This document shows positions 45,235-50,397 of a stretch of DNA of 64,000 nucleotides, in pieces; position 1 is the stretch's first letter; every line of letters starts with the position of its first letter. The stretch lies in the IMG/VR virus record IMGVR_UViG_3300027779_000018, positions 1 through 64,000 of that record; one strand, written 5' to 3'. Both the position numbers and the translations under genes were made by a program. The stretch is from a virus. A model generated the notes under the pieces. That model ran no database searches. It worked only from the letters and a program-made list of their open reading frames with translations, and was not told where the DNA came from.

Positions 45235-47208
45235 TTAATTTGCGTATTGCAATGTATGGTCTTGGTCAGTGGTAACTTGGTGGCCAATAACTGTTTGACC
45301 CCCAGTCACAATTGAAGAATTATCAGCAATTGATGAGGTATTAATGTTGTTCATATTCAATTCTTTTCTTTCTCTTGCATCTTCGGTAGCGTTTGCTAAA
45401 TCATCTCCACCACTAACAGTTTCTTTCACTGCTTTCCAACCTTTGCTTAAGTTAGTTTCAACTTCAATGGAATTGTCCATTAGCGCTTGGTCAATAACTG
45501 CTTGAGAGTTCTCACCCCCTACAACGGCTTCCCCTAAGTCAGTAGCCATGTCATCACCTGCTTTACCACCTAGAAGACCACCTACAATTGCACCACCAAC
45601 TCCACCAAGGAAACCACCTATTGCAGTTCCTATGCCGGGCCCGAAGAAAGAACCAATAAATGCACCAGCTTTAGCACCAGCGGCTCCACCTGCGAGGGCC
45701 CCTGCGAACGCACCAGTAGCTTTACCAGTTGAACCCACTAAATTAGCTTCATGAGCAGTTTCGAGTTTTTCAAATTCATCATCAGACATGTCTCTCATCT
45801 CACCATCGGCACCTTTAATTTTGAGTGTTCCTGCTTCTCTTTGTTTCTTAAGTGCTTCAAACTTAGACATTTGTTCATCTACGTCAACGGCACCTTCTAC
45901 AACTGCACCGATGATCGGTAACTTTTTAACTATAGCACCTAAACCTTTTTTAAGACCACTCCACATTCCACCTGATTTAGCAACTTCTTTAACAACATCA
46001 TCACCGGCTTTTAAACCTTGTCCTTGTCCTTTAAATCGTTTGTCGGGTGTGCCATCTGCTTTTAATTTGACACCTTTAGGCACTTTGTCCATCTTCGGTT
46101 TTGGTGGGAAGAGTTTAGAAAATCTATTTTGTAACCCTTTCCAACCTTTAGCAACCATGTCAGCGCCTGACTGAATAACTTTACCAGCACCCTCAATAGC
46201 CTTCTTTACTGCGGTAGCTGCACCAGTAAATGCGCCTGCCTCAAACGCAGCCAAAATCAGACCAATTGCGGCCCCAATTGCTATAATGGGTAATAAAATA
46301 CCAGCAGATATCAAGAGCAATGAAGTAGTGATACCCAACAATAAGAAGCCAAGTCTTTTCGATATCTTCTCTAGTGTTCCAGTATTATCCTCTTGTTGAT
46401 CTATGCCATCCTGCTGACCTTCCAATCGTTCCTCATCCATTTCTAAACTTTTATTCATGAAACCACCCAACTTTTTAATTGGGGTAGCAAGAAAACCAAC
46501 CACATCCTTAGCTGCTGACCATTGTTTTGTAATTGCATCTAGGGGCGCAGCGATATCAACGAGACCACCAGTCATGGTTTTTATACCAGCAGTGAATTTA
46601 TCAAACCCATCACTGTTGTTGGCCTCTTCCATCTGTTTGAGTTTCTCATCGTTTATTTCTTTGGCAGCTAACTGATATTTTTCTGATTCCTTTTCTTCAA
46701 TCTCAATTCTTTTATCTACACTAGATAGAATTTGTTCTTCTGTTTTTTTTCTTTTATCTTGTAACTCTTCAATAGATTTCATCTGATTATTAAGAGCTGC
46801 CCCCTGAAGCTTCGCACTCACTTCAATTTTATCAGCAATTTTTTTATCGAGCTCACCAAGTTTATTAGTCGATTTAAGTGCAGTTTCAAGTCTGTCTGTT
46901 CTTTCTTGTTCCAAGGTCTCTCGTATTTTGAGGGAGTCCTTAACAGCTTGATTAACTTTTATGAACTCAGAGTCGTTTTTAAATTTCTCTTGAACTTTTA
47001 GAGATTTACGAGCAGCTAGTGCAGACGCGAATGTATCAGAAGAGTTGTTAGCGATGTCAGCTGCAGCTTTAGCCACATCAACATTGATATCTTTTAAGTT
47101 ATTAATAACACCTTTAAATGCAGAAGGAAGCTTGGCACTAACCTTGGTTAATTCCTTAGTGTTCTTTAATATCTCTTTATTTTGATCTGCTACTGAGTCC
47201 TTGGCCAT
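45235..47208 (-). CDS. Tape-measure-like / baseplate hub protein
   Basis: Long helical coiled coil, TM segment, Gly/Ala-rich glycine zipper; downstream of gp26/gp51-like genes. Confidence 0.6.
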   Translation of the reverse strand: MAKDSVADQNKEILKNTKELTKVSAKLPSAFKGVINNLKDINVDVAKAAADIANNSSDTFASALAARKSLKVQEKFKNDSEFIKVNQAVKDSLKIRETLEQERTDRLETALKSTNKLGELDKKIADKIEVSAKLQGAALNNQMKSIEELQDKRKKTEEQILSSVDKRIEIEEKESEKYQLAAKEINDEKLKQMEEANNSDGFDKFTAGIKTMTGGLVDIAAPLDAITKQWSAAKDVVGFLATPIKKLGGFMNKSLEMDEERLEGQQDGIDQQEDNTGTLEKISKRLGFLLLGITTSLLLISAGILLPIIAIGAAIGLILAAFEAGAFTGAATAVKKAIEGAGKVIQSGADMVAKGWKGLQNRFSKLFPPKPKMDKVPKGVKLKADGTPDKRFKGQGQGLKAGDDVVKEVAKSGGMWSGLKKGLGAIVKKLPIIGAVVEGAVDVDEQMSKFEALKKQREAGTLKIKGADGEMRDMSDDEFEKLETAHEANLVGSTGKATGAFAGALAGGAAGAKAGAFIGSFFGPGIGTAIGGFLGGVGGAIVGGLLGGKAGDDMATDLGEAVVGGENSQAVIDQALMDNSIEVETNLSKGWKAVKETVSGGDDLANATEDARERKELNMNNINTSSIADNSSIVTGGQTVIGHQVTTDQDHTLQYAN

Positions 47209-47220
47209 TTATTTTTCTCT

Positions 47221-47604
47221 TTATTTTCCGAATGCTTTTCCAGCTTCTGATATACCGAATGCACCTAGTGTAACTACAACAAATGATGTGTAGATAGTTT
47301 CAGATACTTTCAAGTCCATATCAAATGCTAATGCTGTAACTAAATCTGTTATTCCAAACACGACCATCAATGCAAATGAAGTGAATCCTATGATTGCTTT
47401 TTCATTAACATCGTTATCATCTAAGAACAACATTCCAAATGTTCTCTTAGGTGGTTCAAGTTGATTTCGTGCTTTAACAGCATCTTCCTTCATCTCCTTG
47501 ATTCGATCTTCTTGGTCATCGAGTTTTTCGATAAGTGCCATGTACTTATCTAAATCTATTTCAACTTCATTGCCACCCGATTTCTTATCGTCATCGTCGC
47601 TCAT
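47221..47604 (-). CDS. Two-TM membrane protein
   Basis: DDNDVNEK.IIGF.SF...IYTSFVVVTLG.FGI. Confidence 0.7.
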   Translation of the reverse strand: MSDDDDKKSGGNEVEIDLDKYMALIEKLDDQEDRIKEMKEDAVKARNQLEPPKRTFGMLFLDDNDVNEKAIIGFTSFALMVVFGITDLVTALAFDMDLKVSETIYTSFVVVTLGAFGISEAGKAFGK

Positions 47605-47681: not shown

Positions 47682-47813
47682 CTACTGGTTACGAGCTTGT
47701 GTTTGTCTATCCTTTTCTTCCTCTAGCCAATTCAGCAACAGAGAAATGTATATCTCTCTTTCCCATGGTATCATACTTTCTAGTTCTGTTAAACTGTACT
47801 TATGATGTTGCAT
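47682..47813 (-). CDS. gp51-like baseplate hub assembly catalyst (short form)
   Basis: MQHHKYSLTELESMIPWEREIYISLL; the frame stays open upstream to a U8 run at the gp26-like stop. Confidence 0.75.
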   Translation of the reverse strand: MQHHKYSLTELESMIPWEREIYISLLLNWLEEEKDRQTQARNQ

Positions 47814-47866
47814 CAATTGAAAGTTAGTTTTATAATAGTTTACTAAACTTTCATGAGAAAGAGATA

Positions 47867-48571
47867 TTAAAAAAAATCTGATAGACCTCTAAGTGTTGAG
47901 GTATTTTTAGTACCACAAACATTACAGTCAAATTCCACCACCTCTTCAATGGTAGGAATTTGTTCGAAGAAGTCATTCAACTTCTCCATCTGATCTATTG
48001 TTAAACTCTCAATGAATTCAACAAGTTCTGCATCCTGAATTTCATCAGCTGTATATACAGTTTCTTCATCATATATACTTTCAATTCCGTATTTTAACAA
48101 CTCAACAATTCTATCACTTGTCTCTTTCGAGTCAACCATTGCTAATTGTTTGGTTGATGGATAACGAAGAGTGACACCTAGTGTATCGGATAGTGCAATT
48201 GTTGGGTCAACAACTTGGTCAGAGAATTTAACTTTAACTTCTGATAAATCAACTTCAACTTCTCCTGAACCTACACATCCTGTTTTATTACAGTACAATG
48301 CTACCTTAGTTGTTTCTCCTATCGACTTTGCTCTAATTTGTAAAAACAAATATTCCAAGTCAAAGATAGGTAGTTTATCCGAATCAACCTTTCCATCTGT
48401 AACAGCTGTAACTAAACTTTTAACTGCACCAAGAGTTTCCATGTTGTCTTGACTTTCTTTTGCAAGTAGCAAGTACTTTTGTTCTTTCACTAGAAAAGGT
48501 CGAAACTCAACTTCCCTTCCCCCGCTTAATTGACACTTAAACTTAGGTGCCTTTTGGATTGGTAATCCCAT
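47867..48571 (-). CDS. gp26: Baseplate hub assembly protein (gp26-like)
   Basis: FRPFLVKEQK.LL, FDLEYLFLQIRAKSIGE, Cys pairs, GLSDFF C-terminus. Confidence 0.88.
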   Translation of the reverse strand: MGLPIQKAPKFKCQLSGGREVEFRPFLVKEQKYLLLAKESQDNMETLGAVKSLVTAVTDGKVDSDKLPIFDLEYLFLQIRAKSIGETTKVALYCNKTGCVGSGEVEVDLSEVKVKFSDQVVDPTIALSDTLGVTLRYPSTKQLAMVDSKETSDRIVELLKYGIESIYDEETVYTADEIQDAELVEFIESLTIDQMEKLNDFFEQIPTIEEVVEFDCNVCGTKNTSTLRGLSDFF

Positions 48572-48590
48572 AATTTACTCCATATTGTAA

Positions 48591-49385
48591 TTAACCACCA
48601 CCACCGAATAAATTATTAATCTGTGTGGTTCTCGTATCTAGATTTGATAAAGTCTTGTTAAATTTTCCACCTTTACCAAATCGGTCTAATATTTTTCCAC
48701 CCTCTAATAGTGAATCTAATATTACTCGTCCTTTATTTAGTGCAGACCGTTCAGGTGCAGCCACATATTCTGACTCCCAATTCCTAAACGCAATCGTACA
48801 TGTAAATTTCATTATTTCGTCACTAGTTCCCCGATTCAACTCTTGAGGTTCAAACTTAATAGGGTATGCTTCATATAGATTAACCTTTAAGGCCTTCTTC
48901 CCATCCAGTCTATGTTGAATGATCTCAACTTTGCCAATGTAATCATCGTACCATGACATACTTGGATTAAGTACACTACCAGTTTCATCATTTGTAGTAC
49001 CTATAACATTTCCCTCTACATCTTTTTTCATAGTGGATGGTGCAGAACTGAATACTATTTGTTGCCATGCTTCAATGATTAATCTATCTGCAAAGTGTTG
49101 GTCACATATAAAGGTAAAATCCATTGAACCACCTGAACCATCTATTGTACCAGTTGGCATTTGTCTTACTTGACCATACTCAGAAAATGATTTAACTTCA
49201 AGTTCTCTGCCTGGCAATTGACATGATTCTAATCTTACACCCATTAATTTTGATTCGGTCAACACATCATTGGAAAAACTGTTTGGTAGAAAGAAGTTTG
49301 CATCGAAACGGTTCGGCCTTGCACCCGAATCAAAATTATATTTTAGTTCGTCTATACTGGTGCCTTTTCTTGTAAAAATTGACAT
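48591..49385 (-). CDS. Tail-tube-fold protein (gp19/gp54-like)
   Basis: GARPNRF, LPGR, W...Y.DY.G, LYEAYP, F...AFR.W. Confidence 0.75.
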   Translation of the reverse strand: MSIFTRKGTSIDELKYNFDSGARPNRFDANFFLPNSFSNDVLTESKLMGVRLESCQLPGRELEVKSFSEYGQVRQMPTGTIDGSGGSMDFTFICDQHFADRLIIEAWQQIVFSSAPSTMKKDVEGNVIGTTNDETGSVLNPSMSWYDDYIGKVEIIQHRLDGKKALKVNLYEAYPIKFEPQELNRGTSDEIMKFTCTIAFRNWESEYVAAPERSALNKGRVILDSLLEGGKILDRFGKGGKFNKTLSNLDTRTTQINNLFGGGG

Positions 49386-49965: not shown

Positions 49966-50397
49966 TCAGGTGAGGTGATCTTCCGTCAATATCCTGAAAA
50001 CAAATTTACGATTTTTACAATATTCTTCTGCAGCCTTGAACTTTGCTTGGTTAACAGCATAAGTTGCTACCTCATTTAGGTATCTCTTGGTTTTTCTTTG
50101 GGGTGTTTTGGGGGGTTTACATTGTCTTTTAGGTTTTACTTCAATGATTTCATGGACTGATTTACCCATAGTGTCTACTTTCTTGATATAGAAGTCAGGA
50201 AAGTAACGATGTGTTCGGTTATCTATGGGAGATATGTACGGTATTACGACTTCTTCACTGTTCCATTCAACAATACTGGGGTTCTTATCACAATATAACA
50301 TGAATCTTCTCTCCCACAGAGATCGATAGAAGACCTTTGTGGGGTCTCCTTTGTATTTTTTATAATTCTTTGGTGTAAACCTACCTTTATAAGACAT
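49966..50397 (-). CDS. gp4: Head completion nuclease (gp4)
   Basis: YKGDP...YRSLWE, W.SEE..IPY, HRYFPDF, IEVKP, NQAK. Confidence 0.92.
   Translation of the reverse strand: MSYKGRFTPKNYKKYKGDPTKVFYRSLWERRFMLYCDKNPSIVEWNSEEVVIPYISPIDNRTHRYFPDFYIKKVDTMGKSVHEIIEVKPKRQCKPPKTPQRKTKRYLNEVATYAVNQAKFKAAEEYCKNRKFVFRILTEDHLT

What the first reader, a model, noticed from the sequence alone, without database searches (positions are those of the whole stretch)
47682..47880. Predicted -1 ribosomal frameshift fusing the gp26-like and gp51-like baseplate chaperones (G/GT-like)
Seen: on the minus strand the gp26-like ORF ends TCA GAT TTT TTT TAA, a U8 run (A8 at 47869-47876) giving a U UUU UUU slippery heptamer right at the stop. 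The -1 frame continues without a stop as LISLSHESLVNYYKTNFQL into MQHHKYSLTELESMIPWERE (gp51-like), and that Met has no evident SD. Established: long-tailed phages make tail-assembly chaperones G and GT by programmed frameshifting upstream of the tape-measure gene. Inference: this pair, two genes upstream of a tape-measure-like gene, is the T4-like equivalent, and the short 'gp51' is the C-terminal extension of a frameshift product.
Basis: partly seen in the sequence, partly recalled or inferred. Interest (0 to 1): 0.8.

Follow-up and report, generated by a model that had tools for sequence, protein, structure and literature searches.

The report
Frameshift in T4-like tail-chaperone gene
One tail-assembly gene of this uncultured marine T4-like phage very probably makes a short and a long protein because some ribosomes slip back one base on a run of U's, doing with one gene what phage T4 does with its genes 26 and 51; the signal is real and strongly conserved, but this arrangement in T4-like phages has already been published.

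Summary
The gp26-like ORF (47867-48571, minus strand) ends TCA GAT TTT TTT TAA, and the -1 frame runs open for 62 codons through the 'gp51-like' ORF.

- All 102 of 102 related loci keep an in-phase T TTT TTN heptamer at this spot, followed by a conserved -1-frame extension.
- The six T's are invariant in 93 of 93 distinct junctions, and codon periodicity switches to the -1 frame right after them.
- The residues upstream of the 'gp51' Met are conserved. The Met is not, and it has no Shine-Dalgarno.
- The short form lines up with T4 gp26 and the frameshift product with T4 gp51. Both T4 proteins are PF12322 paralogues.
- Four complete single-gene relatives have one PF12322 gene each; T4 has two.
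- The N-terminal part folds like the solved tail assembly chaperones.

It is not new. Papers citing Vladimirov, Gautam & Davidson 2022 (Virology 566:9, not readable here) credit it with the T4-like chaperone genes, their poly-T frameshift signal and T4's two-gene alternative. This scan has also noted the same thing on other DNA: 289 notes in at least 261 genomes. Interest is low.

The parts
47867..48571 (-). gp26-like ORF, the short (0-frame) form of the tail assembly chaperone; 234 aa, ends ..GLSDFF then TAA
   Evidence: PF12322 T4_baseplate 1.5e-54, profile positions 3-218 of 219; phrog_150 'baseplate hub' 1.2e-58, positions 6-232 of 282. AlphaFold2 model pLDDT 94.0. Residues 1-94 best match the solved chaperones 3fgx, 2ob9 and 3klu, Z 7.8, 6.8 and 6.5.
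47886..47890 (-). Shine-Dalgarno-like AGAGG, 9 nt upstream of the heptamer; possible stimulator (inferred)
   Evidence: Anti-SD duplex energy -6.5 kcal/mol here. Across 96 distinct relatives the mean is -5.4 against -1.2 for other windows of the same ORFs, and 66 of 96 fall in the top tenth of their own ORF. Confounded by the conserved [KRE]-Gly codons.
47870..47876 (-). Slippery heptamer T TTT TTT (U UUU UUU), in phase with the 0 frame; part of the T8 run 47869-47876
   Evidence: An in-phase TTTTTTN is present in 102 of 102 related loci. The six T's have zero entropy in 93 distinct junctions.
47867..47869 (-). 0-frame stop TAA directly after the heptamer
   Evidence: In 96 distinct relatives the 0-frame stop follows the heptamer by 0 codons (37), 1 (48), 3 (10) or 8 (1).
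47685..47870 (-). -1-frame extension, 62 codons (LISLSH...ARNQ). It is the C-terminal part of the predicted 296-aa long form and includes the ORF so far called gp51-like (TTG 47816 / ATG 47813)
   Evidence: Open frame. phrog_634 'baseplate hub assembly catalyst' 8.2e-28, positions 59-117 of 121. phrog_150 positions 236-276 of 282, 8.7e-6, directly following the end of the short form at position 232. Predicted as three helices, pLDDT 86.7.
47682..47684 (-). Stop TAG of the long form
48591..49385 (-). Upstream neighbour: tail-tube-like protein (gp54-type tube initiator), 264 aa
   Evidence: phrog_45 'tail tube' 1.4e-20. The homologue in Mosig and HTVC008M is annotated as baseplate tail tube initiator.
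47221..47604 (-). Small 127-aa ORF between the chaperone gene and the tape-measure-like gene
   Evidence: No Pfam or PHROG hit. A small ORF holds the same place in Melnitz-3, Mosig and HTVC008M.
45235..47208 (-). Tape-measure-like protein, 657 aa
   Evidence: Only weak PHROG hits, including phrog_23574 'tail length tape measure protein' 6.5e-5. The gene in the same place in HTVC008M is annotated 'putative tail tape measure'.

Best explanation
The gp26-like gene is the tail assembly chaperone gene of this T4-like phage, and it is read in two ways.

- Most ribosomes stop at the TAA and make the 234-aa short form, the counterpart of T4 gp26.
- A minority slip back one base on U UUU UUU. The Phe-tRNAs re-pair with UUU, and the shift may happen with the stop codon waiting in the A site.
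- Those ribosomes continue for 62 codons and make a 296-aa long form. Its helical C-terminal extension is what has been annotated as a separate tiny 'gp51'.
- The long form is the counterpart of T4 gp51.

By analogy with lambda G/GT, the shared N-terminal domain would coat the tape-measure protein, and the extension would link it to a tube or hub protein during hub and tube initiation.

Shown here: the signal, its conservation, the coding of the -1 frame, and the colinearity with T4 gp26 and gp51. Inferred: that the shift happens, its efficiency, and the binding partners.
For: 1. Anatomy: heptamer, stop and open -1 frame.
2. Conservation: 102 of 102 loci (window plus 101 IMG/VR loci, 28-68% identity) have an in-phase TTTTTTN heptamer and a -1-frame extension of 58-73 codons; 3 are cut by a contig end.
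3. Among 96 distinct sequences, TTTTTTT occurs 50 times, TTTTTTC 40 and TTTTTTA 6, over 27-61% G+C. The codon before always ends in T and the first Phe codon is always TTT. In the rest of the ORFs the T-ending synonym is used 72% of the time and TTT 68%.
4. Entropy is 0 at the six T's. Third-position variability follows the 0 frame upstream and the -1 frame downstream. For the first 19 codons after the slip, the -1 frame shows 52% mean pairwise identity and 0 of 93 sequences with a stop. The other two frames show 31% and 28% identity, with stops in 93 and 90 of 93.
5. Own initiation does not fit. The first ATG of the extension lies at codon 1-4 in 11, 8-14 in 18, 18-19 in 55 and 32-43 in 11 of 96, with none in the one locus cut by its contig end. 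Any start codon within the first 5 codons occurs in only 20 of 96. SRB7757 has no start codon at all in the extension. The window's Met has no SD.
6. Homology: T4 gp26 and gp51 each cover PF12322 in full, and gp51 has 48 extra C-terminal residues. Thanatos-2 gp51 covers phrog_150 positions 14-282. The window's short form covers 6-232 and its extension 236-276.
7. Gene count: one PF12322 gene in each of 4 complete single-gene genomes, two in T4. T4 genes 26 and 51 lack the T run.
8. Fold: the only four chains with Z of 5 or more are 3fgx, 2ob9 (HK97 chaperone), 3klu and 5ir0, all on residues 1-94. The first three are called phage tail assembly chaperones in PMC9603447 (passages).
9. Literature: passages in PMC12846349 and PMC10274946 attribute the poly-T frameshift and the two-gene variant to Vladimirov et al. 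2022.
Against: - No protein or RNA evidence for the long form exists here. The sequencing runs are kept as contigs, which drop rare variants and cannot show translation.
- No conserved downstream stimulatory structure was found. The RNAalifold consensus is -0.57 kcal/mol with no covariation. The window's own hairpin (-9.9 kcal/mol, z -2.75) starts 16 nt after the heptamer, further than usual.
- The FF dipeptide is conserved as protein, so part of the T-run conservation is amino-acid constraint.
- In some distant lineages (KVP40-like, RSP15, Marzo, RHph_N34) the 0-frame stop overlaps an ATG (TAATG or TGATG), so reinitiation could contribute there.
- The structural matches have Z below 8, a range in which chance resemblances occur.
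- I could not read the 2022 paper itself.
Confidence: 0.85

Rival explanations
1. Transcriptional slippage is the main mechanism. RNA polymerase adds one extra U on the T8 (A8 template) run, so a fraction of mRNAs encode the fused protein in one frame. The product is identical to that of a -1 ribosomal shift.
For: The window and 31 other distinct relatives have a T8 run, and 18 have T7. From recalled literature, homopolymer runs of this length can support some polymerase slippage. No downstream RNA structure is conserved. I could not read what the title of Vladimirov et al. [quoted passage not shown]
Against: In 46 of 96 distinct relatives the run is only T6, followed by C or A. That length is too short for efficient polymerase slippage (recalled) but is a canonical X XXY YYZ ribosomal site. 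The phase of the run relative to the reading frame is fixed in 102 of 102 loci. The RNA-library contig across the run shows T8 with no indel, but contigs cannot show minor variants. PMC10274946 explains the 'other mechanism' as T4's two separate genes.
Confidence: 0.07
2. There are two separate genes. The short gp51-like ORF is translated on its own from the TTG/ATG at 47816/47813, or by reinitiation after the gp26 stop, giving a free 44-aa peptide. The T run only encodes Phe-Phe.
For: This is how 10 of the 12 annotated single-gene records I fetched are annotated, with no joined CDS in any. 55 of 96 relatives have an ATG at codon 18 or 19 of the extension. Some distant lineages have TAATG or TGATG overlaps.
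Against: The 18 residues upstream of that ATG are conserved in the -1 frame only, with 0 of 93 sequences carrying a stop. The Met is replaced by Ile, Ala, Val or Leu in several lineages. There is no SD. The synonymous T-ending codon before the run is kept in 96 of 96. The extension follows directly, at adjacent profile positions, in T4-type gp51.
Confidence: 0.05
3. The split is an artefact or decay: a homopolymer-length error or a recent frameshift mutation has broken a single gp51-type gene.
For: One more T in the run would fuse the frames.
Against: The same frame relation holds in 102 of 102 loci from many samples and in cultured phage genomes. Contigs of two DNA runs from other studies carry T8 exactly.
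Confidence: 0.01

Closest known systems
[quoted passage not shown] The paper is not held; I know it only from passages in papers that cite it.
   Same: By those passages, T4-like phages have a short and a long chaperone form. TAC-N genes of T4-like phages carry a poly-T -1 frameshift signal. Some T4-like phages instead carry one short gene and one long fused gene. That is what I find here for this window, its relatives and T4.
   Different: Probably nothing in kind. I could not check which phages that paper covers, or whether it notes the T8-plus-stop layout, the upstream SD-like element or the lack of a downstream structure.
Phage T4 gp26 (208 aa) and gp51 (249 aa), hub assembly chaperones (Leiman et al. 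2010, PMC3004832; passages and Table 2 read)
   Same: Same Pfam family, PF12322. The short form ends at the same ..RGL.[DE]FF motif as T4 gp26. The long form is colinear with gp51, including the C-terminal ..Y/F..N..(M)IP.ER.. extension.
   Different: T4 uses two divergent genes on opposite strands and has no T run in either. Here one gene and a frameshift give both forms.
Lambda gpG/gpGT and the conserved -1 frameshift of tail assembly chaperone genes (Xu, Hendrix & Duda 2004, Mol Cell 16:11; recalled, seen only as a reference)
   Same: Two products share an N-terminus. A -1 shift on an X XXY YYZ heptamer lies a few codons before the stop of the short form. The gene lies between a tube gene and the tape-measure gene. 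The N-terminal domain has a chaperone-like fold.
   Different: There is no sequence similarity. The domain is larger (234 aa, with an extra C-terminal part). The heptamer is U UUU UUU rather than G GGA AAG (recalled). A small ORF lies between the chaperone gene and the tape-measure-like gene.
Tail assembly chaperone frameshift of Vandenendeviridae and Andersonviridae myoviruses (PMC12846349; abstract and section 3.8.3 passages read)
   Same: A conserved GTTTTT-type run lies at the 3' end of TAC-N. The -1 frame is uninterrupted across divergent genomes. The downstream ORF is routinely mis-annotated as a separate hypothetical gene.
   Different: A different protein family and phage group.
E. coli dnaX -1 frameshift signal (recalled)
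   Same: A homopolymer-type heptamer with an SD-like element about 10 nt upstream. Here AGAGG sits 9 nt upstream, and such elements are enriched in relatives.
   Different: dnaX also has a strong downstream hairpin; none is conserved here. The SD-like element here may only reflect conserved Lys/Arg/Glu-Gly codons.

Membership tests
Pfam PF12322 T4_baseplate (T4 gp26/gp51 family) | Full-length match to the family profile above the curated cut-off | tested here: met
   1.5e-54, 185.4 bits against a cut-off of 24.5, profile positions 3-218 of 219. T4 gp26 scores 8.8e-64 and T4 gp51 3.9e-52 with the same model.
T4 gp51-type long form | PF12322 domain followed directly by the roughly 50-residue C-terminal extension | tested here: met
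   This holds only through the -1 shift. The short form ends at phrog_150 position 232 and the -1 peptide covers 236-276 (8.7e-6) and phrog_634 positions 59-117 (8.2e-28). Thanatos-2 gp51 covers phrog_150 positions 14-282 in one frame.
Frameshifted tail assembly chaperone (lambda G/GT type) | [quoted passage not shown] | tested here: met
   T TTT TTT at 47870-47876. Found in 102 of 102 relatives. Frame-specific conservation shown.
Frameshifted tail assembly chaperone (lambda G/GT type) | Gene lies between the tail tube gene and the tape measure gene | tested here: inconclusive
   A tube-like gene lies directly upstream (phrog_45, 1.4e-20). Downstream a 127-aa ORF intervenes before a 657-aa protein whose tape-measure assignment is weak (phrog_23574, 6.5e-5; the HTVC008M annotation).
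Frameshifted tail assembly chaperone (lambda G/GT type) | Tail assembly chaperone fold | tested here: met
   Model pLDDT 94.0. The only chains with Z of 5 or more among 48,161 are 3fgx_B (Z 7.8, rmsd 4.1, 84 aligned), 2ob9_B, the HK97 chaperone (6.8, 4.0, 83), 3klu_A (6.5, 3.9, 83) and 5ir0_B (5.3), all on model residues 1-94. Z is below 8, so support is moderate. Foldseek found nothing.
Frameshifted tail assembly chaperone (lambda G/GT type) | Both products are made at a fixed ratio, are needed for tail assembly and are absent from virions; the short part binds the tape measure and the extension binds a tube protein | not testable with these tools
   Needs proteomics, genetics or binding assays.
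dnaX-type -1 frameshift signal | Upstream SD-like element and downstream stem-loop flanking the heptamer | tested here: inconclusive
   An SD-like element is present and enriched but is confounded by coding. No conserved downstream structure was found in 12 relatives. The window's own hairpin starts 16 nt downstream.

The most novel reading that the evidence does not exclude
In the T8-plus-stop clade, which includes this window, HTVC008M and Melnitz, the signal may be a distinct minimal type. It would have no downstream structure. The shift would happen by P-site slippage while the stop codon waits in the A site, helped by an upstream SD-like contact as in dnaX and perhaps by some polymerase slippage. 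The short-to-long ratio would then be set by competition with release factor rather than by an RNA roadblock.
Probability: 0.2. Interest if true: 0.4.

Novelty: new member of a known kind. Interest (0 to 1): 0.25.

Why it matters
This result corrects an annotation rather than making a discovery.

- The tiny 'gp51' genes of marine T4-like phages (cyanophages, pelagiphages and others) are not genes of their own. They are the C-terminal part of a frameshift product.
- None of the 12 annotated single-gene GenBank records I fetched shows the frameshift.
- It also shows neatly that the same short/long chaperone pair can come from one recoded gene or from two paralogous genes, as in T4.
- That point is credited to a 2022 paper and has been noted many times in this scan, so it adds little.

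Tried and rejected
- Complex prediction of the 62-aa extension with the neighbouring tube-like protein (alignments A4 and A5) gave no verdict, score 0.00. It says nothing either way.
- Foldseek against the PDB gave no match; best E 0.14.
- A profile search of solved structures by sequence gave only chance-level rows; best E 0.021.
- Downstream stimulatory RNA structure: no conserved structure and no covariation in 12 relatives, so I do not claim one.
- Sequencing runs: all 24 listed runs are kept as contigs, so the test for U9 transcripts (polymerase slippage) could not be made. The laid contigs only show that T8 is genuine and that an RNA-library contig bridges the junction; DNA may be present in that library.
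- Literature searches for a report of a gp26/gp51 frameshift found nothing relevant in the held library. The prior paper surfaced only as a reference. It could not be read by DOI or PubMed id.
- The own record is only about 45% complete, so its single PF12322 hit cannot exclude a second paralogue. I used complete relatives instead.

Full report
**Observation.** On the minus strand the 234-codon ORF 47867-48571 ends ...CTA TCA GAT TTT TTT TAA.
- The T8 run is 47869-47876, the in-phase heptamer T TTT TTT is 47870-47876, and the stop is 47867-47869.
- The -1 frame is closed by a stop six codons before the end of the run. From the run onward it is open for 62 codons (LISLSHESLVNYYKTNFQLMQHHKYSLTELESMIPWEREIY...), ending at TAG 47682-47684.
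- The ORF list gives the 'gp51-like' ORF as 47682-47816 with a TTG start directly before the ATG.
- That ATG has no Shine-Dalgarno. The anti-SD duplex energy is +1.6 kcal/mol against -5.9 and -6.0 for the flanking genes, and only 3 of 61 long-ORF starts in the window are as weak.
- A T8 run alone is not unusual: 4 in the window against 12.4 expected.
- The run length is genuine. Contigs of two DNA runs from other studies (47787-48581 and 47800-48581) and one RNA-library contig (47300-48264) cross it with no difference and no indel.

**What the proteins are.**
- The 234-aa protein is a full-length PF12322 'T4_baseplate' member (1.5e-54) and matches phrog_150 'baseplate hub' at positions 6-232 of 282.
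- The 62-aa -1-frame peptide matches phrog_634 'baseplate hub assembly catalyst' at positions 59-117 of 121 (8.2e-28). It also matches positions 236-276 of the same phrog_150 (8.7e-6), the stretch that directly follows where the short protein ends.
- Neighbours on the same strand are a gp2-like DNA end protector, a tail-tube-like protein (phrog_45), then this gene, a 127-aa ORF, and a 657-aa protein with weak tape-measure hits. The HTVC008M gene in the same place is annotated 'putative tail tape measure'.

**Relatives.** In Melnitz-3, Mosig and P-RSM4 (38-39% identity) I read the junctions by eye.
- Melnitz-3 has AGT TTT TTT TAA, Mosig GAT TTT TTC ..., and P-RSM4 AGT TTT TTC GGA TAG.
- Each is followed in the -1 frame by [LR]IAL[SM]H...Y[YF]..NFAL.
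- In P-RSM4 the window's Met position is Ile.

A scripted survey covered the window plus 101 IMG/VR loci: 21 from a search with the protein and 80 from a search with an alignment (the best 80 of 595 confirmed). Identity to the window was 28-68%.
- An in-phase TTTTTTN heptamer at the conserved ..[DSN]-F-F C-terminus was present in 102 of 102.
- A -1-frame extension of 58-73 codons was present in all. Three are cut by contig ends.
- My regex for the P-[WFY]-E-R motif matched at codon 34 in 97 of 102. Two of the misses are cut loci. Three carry the motif at the same place with a residue outside the regex.

Among the 96 distinct sequences:
- The heptamer is TTTTTTT in 50, TTTTTTC in 40 and TTTTTTA in 6.
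- T-run length is 6 in 46, 7 in 18 and 8 in 32.
- The 0-frame stop follows the heptamer by 0 codons in 37, 1 in 48, 3 in 10 and 8 in 1.
- G+C of the ORFs ranges from 27 to 61%.
- The codon before the run always ends in T (AGT 37, GAT 31, AAT 16, TCT 10, GCT 1, CAT 1) and the first Phe codon is always TTT. Elsewhere in these ORFs the T-ending synonym is used 72% of the time and TTT 68%.

In 93 distinct junction segments:
- The six T's have zero entropy.
- Third-position variability follows the 0 frame upstream and the -1 frame downstream.
- For the first 19 codons after the slip, mean pairwise identity is 52% in the -1 frame with 0 of 93 sequences carrying a stop. The other two frames give 31% and 28%, with stops in 93 and 90 of 93.

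**Own initiation is a poor fit**.
- The first ATG in the extension lies at codon 1-4 in 11 sequences, 8-14 in 18, 18-19 in 55 and 32-43 in 11, with none in one cut locus.
- Any ATG, GTG or TTG within the first five codons occurs in only 20 of 96, although those residues are conserved.
- The Nitratidesulfovibrio phage SRB7757 has T TTT TTC and no start codon anywhere in its extension.

**Link to T4.**
- In T4 and in Shewanella phage Thanatos-2, genes 26 and 51 are divergent genes on opposite strands.
- T4 gp26 (208 aa) and gp51 (249 aa) both match PF12322 over its full length. In gp51 the match covers residues 1-201, leaving 48 more.
- Thanatos-2 gp26 covers phrog_150 positions 31-234, and its gp51 covers 14-282.
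- T4 gp26 ends ..RGLKEFFELL, like the window's ..RGLSDFF. T4 gp51 continues in frame through ..DVF KLLVNPDEIFTFYQINH...MIPAER.., colinear with the window's -1 frame.
- Neither T4 gene has the T run.
- Complete genomes of HTVC008M, Mosig, Melnitz-3 and P-RSM4 have one PF12322 gene each. T4 has two. The window's own record has one but is only about 45% complete.
- So the single-gene phages can obtain the gp51-type long form only by recoding.

**Fold.**
- The AlphaFold2 model of the short form is confident (pLDDT 94.0, pTM 0.86).
- Foldseek found nothing.
- The alignment-free search of 48,161 chains gave only four with Z of 5 or more, all on residues 1-94: 3fgx_B (7.8), 2ob9_B 'HK97 tail assembly chaperone' (6.8), 3klu_A YqbN (6.5) and 5ir0_B (5.3). 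The next row has Z 4.6.
- PMC9603447 (passages) calls 2OB9, 3KLU and 3FGX phage tail assembly chaperones.
- Z below 8 is moderate support.
- The extension is predicted as three helices: residues 2-23, 27-31 and 35-61, pLDDT 86.7.

**Signal architecture.**
- No downstream structure is conserved. The consensus energy is -0.57 kcal/mol, with 4 pairs and none covarying, in 12 relatives.
- The window alone folds a hairpin (-9.9 kcal/mol, z -2.75) that begins 16 nt after the heptamer.
- Upstream, an SD-like AGAGG lies 9 nt before the heptamer (-6.5 kcal/mol).
- Across 96 relatives the site averages -5.4 against -1.2 kcal/mol for other windows of the same ORFs. 66 of 96 rank in the top tenth and 62 of 96 are at or below -4.
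- This overlaps conserved [KRE]-Gly codons, so it is only a lead.

**Mechanism and rivals.**
- A -1 ribosomal shift on U UUU UUN fits every lineage, including the 46 of 96 with only T6.
- Polymerase slippage would give the same protein and could contribute on T8, but it cannot be general.
- Separate initiation and sequencing error are argued against above.
- In KVP40-like phages, RSP15, Marzo and RHph_N34 the heptamer is kept, but the 0-frame stop overlaps an ATG, so reinitiation may add to it there.
- In two Ackermannviridae the run is degenerate (ATT TTC, CTT TTC), yet the extension is still in the -1 frame.

**Function.** Leiman et al. 2010 (PMC3004832; passages and Table 2) list gp26 and gp51 as hub assembly chaperones. 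They state that gp51 is required for assembly but absent from the particle. The lambda-like roles (the shared domain on the tape measure, the extension on a tube or hub protein) are inference. My single complex prediction gave no verdict.

**Novelty.**
- Searches of the held library for gp26/gp51 with frameshift or chaperone terms found nothing relevant.
- The PRFect preprint PMC10274946 (passage) cites the same paper for T4-like phages that carry a short gene plus a long fused gene instead of frameshifting.
- I could not read that paper.
- The scan's own index holds 289 notes with these words in at least 261 genomes. The eight shown reach the same reading on other DNA.
- The GenBank annotation lags. 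In 12 annotated single-gene records fetched, none has a joined CDS, 10 list the extension as a separate small gene and 2 do not annotate it.

**Verdict.** This is a real and strongly conserved recoding signal, another member of a published kind, and of low interest.

Noticed in passing
window 47886-47890 (minus strand); relatives L004-L112: An SD-like purine motif lies 7-10 nt upstream of the slippery heptamer in most relatives (mean anti-SD energy -5.4 against -1.2 kcal/mol background). The spacing resembles the dnaX stimulator, but the motif overlaps conserved [KRE]-Gly codons.
   Followed up: partly
L114 (Salmonella phage SP1) 1342-1847; L117 (Aeromonas phage phiA8-29): In these two Ackermannviridae the T run is degenerate (ATT TTC ATT TAA; CTT TTC ACT GTC TGA), yet the gp51-type extension (..MPWHLD..) still lies in the -1 frame. 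In SP1 it sits in a 500-nt stretch with no annotated gene.
   Followed up: partly
L028, L029 (KVP40-like Vibrio phages), L030 (RSP15), L115 (Marzo), L116 (RHph_N34): The heptamer is kept (T TTT TTC/T/G), but the 0-frame stop overlaps an ATG in the -1 frame (TAATG or TGATG). Termination-reinitiation could be a second route to the extension in these lineages.
   Followed up: no
window 47221-47604 (minus strand): A 127-aa ORF with an acidic N-terminal half and a hydrophobic C-terminal half sits between the chaperone gene and the tape-measure-like gene. It has no Pfam or PHROG hit, and a small ORF holds the same place in Melnitz-3, Mosig and HTVC008M.
   Followed up: no
window gp26-like residues about 97-104 and 216-219; alignment A1: Two Cys pairs (C..TGC and C.VC), also seen in T4 gp26 and gp51, look like a zinc knuckle. 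They are absent from several lineages of the same family (L015-L022).
   Followed up: no
window 49966-50397 (minus strand): The gp4-type head completion protein (phrog_218, 1.1e-59) also matches the Tn7 TnsA-like endonuclease N-terminal domain PF08722 (5.1e-24).
   Followed up: no
window 47723-47816: In two seawater DNA runs the summed contig depth rises 10- to 70-fold over this stretch, which is the conserved part of the extension. Many contigs there differ at a few places, so many related phages share this near-identical segment.
   Followed up: no
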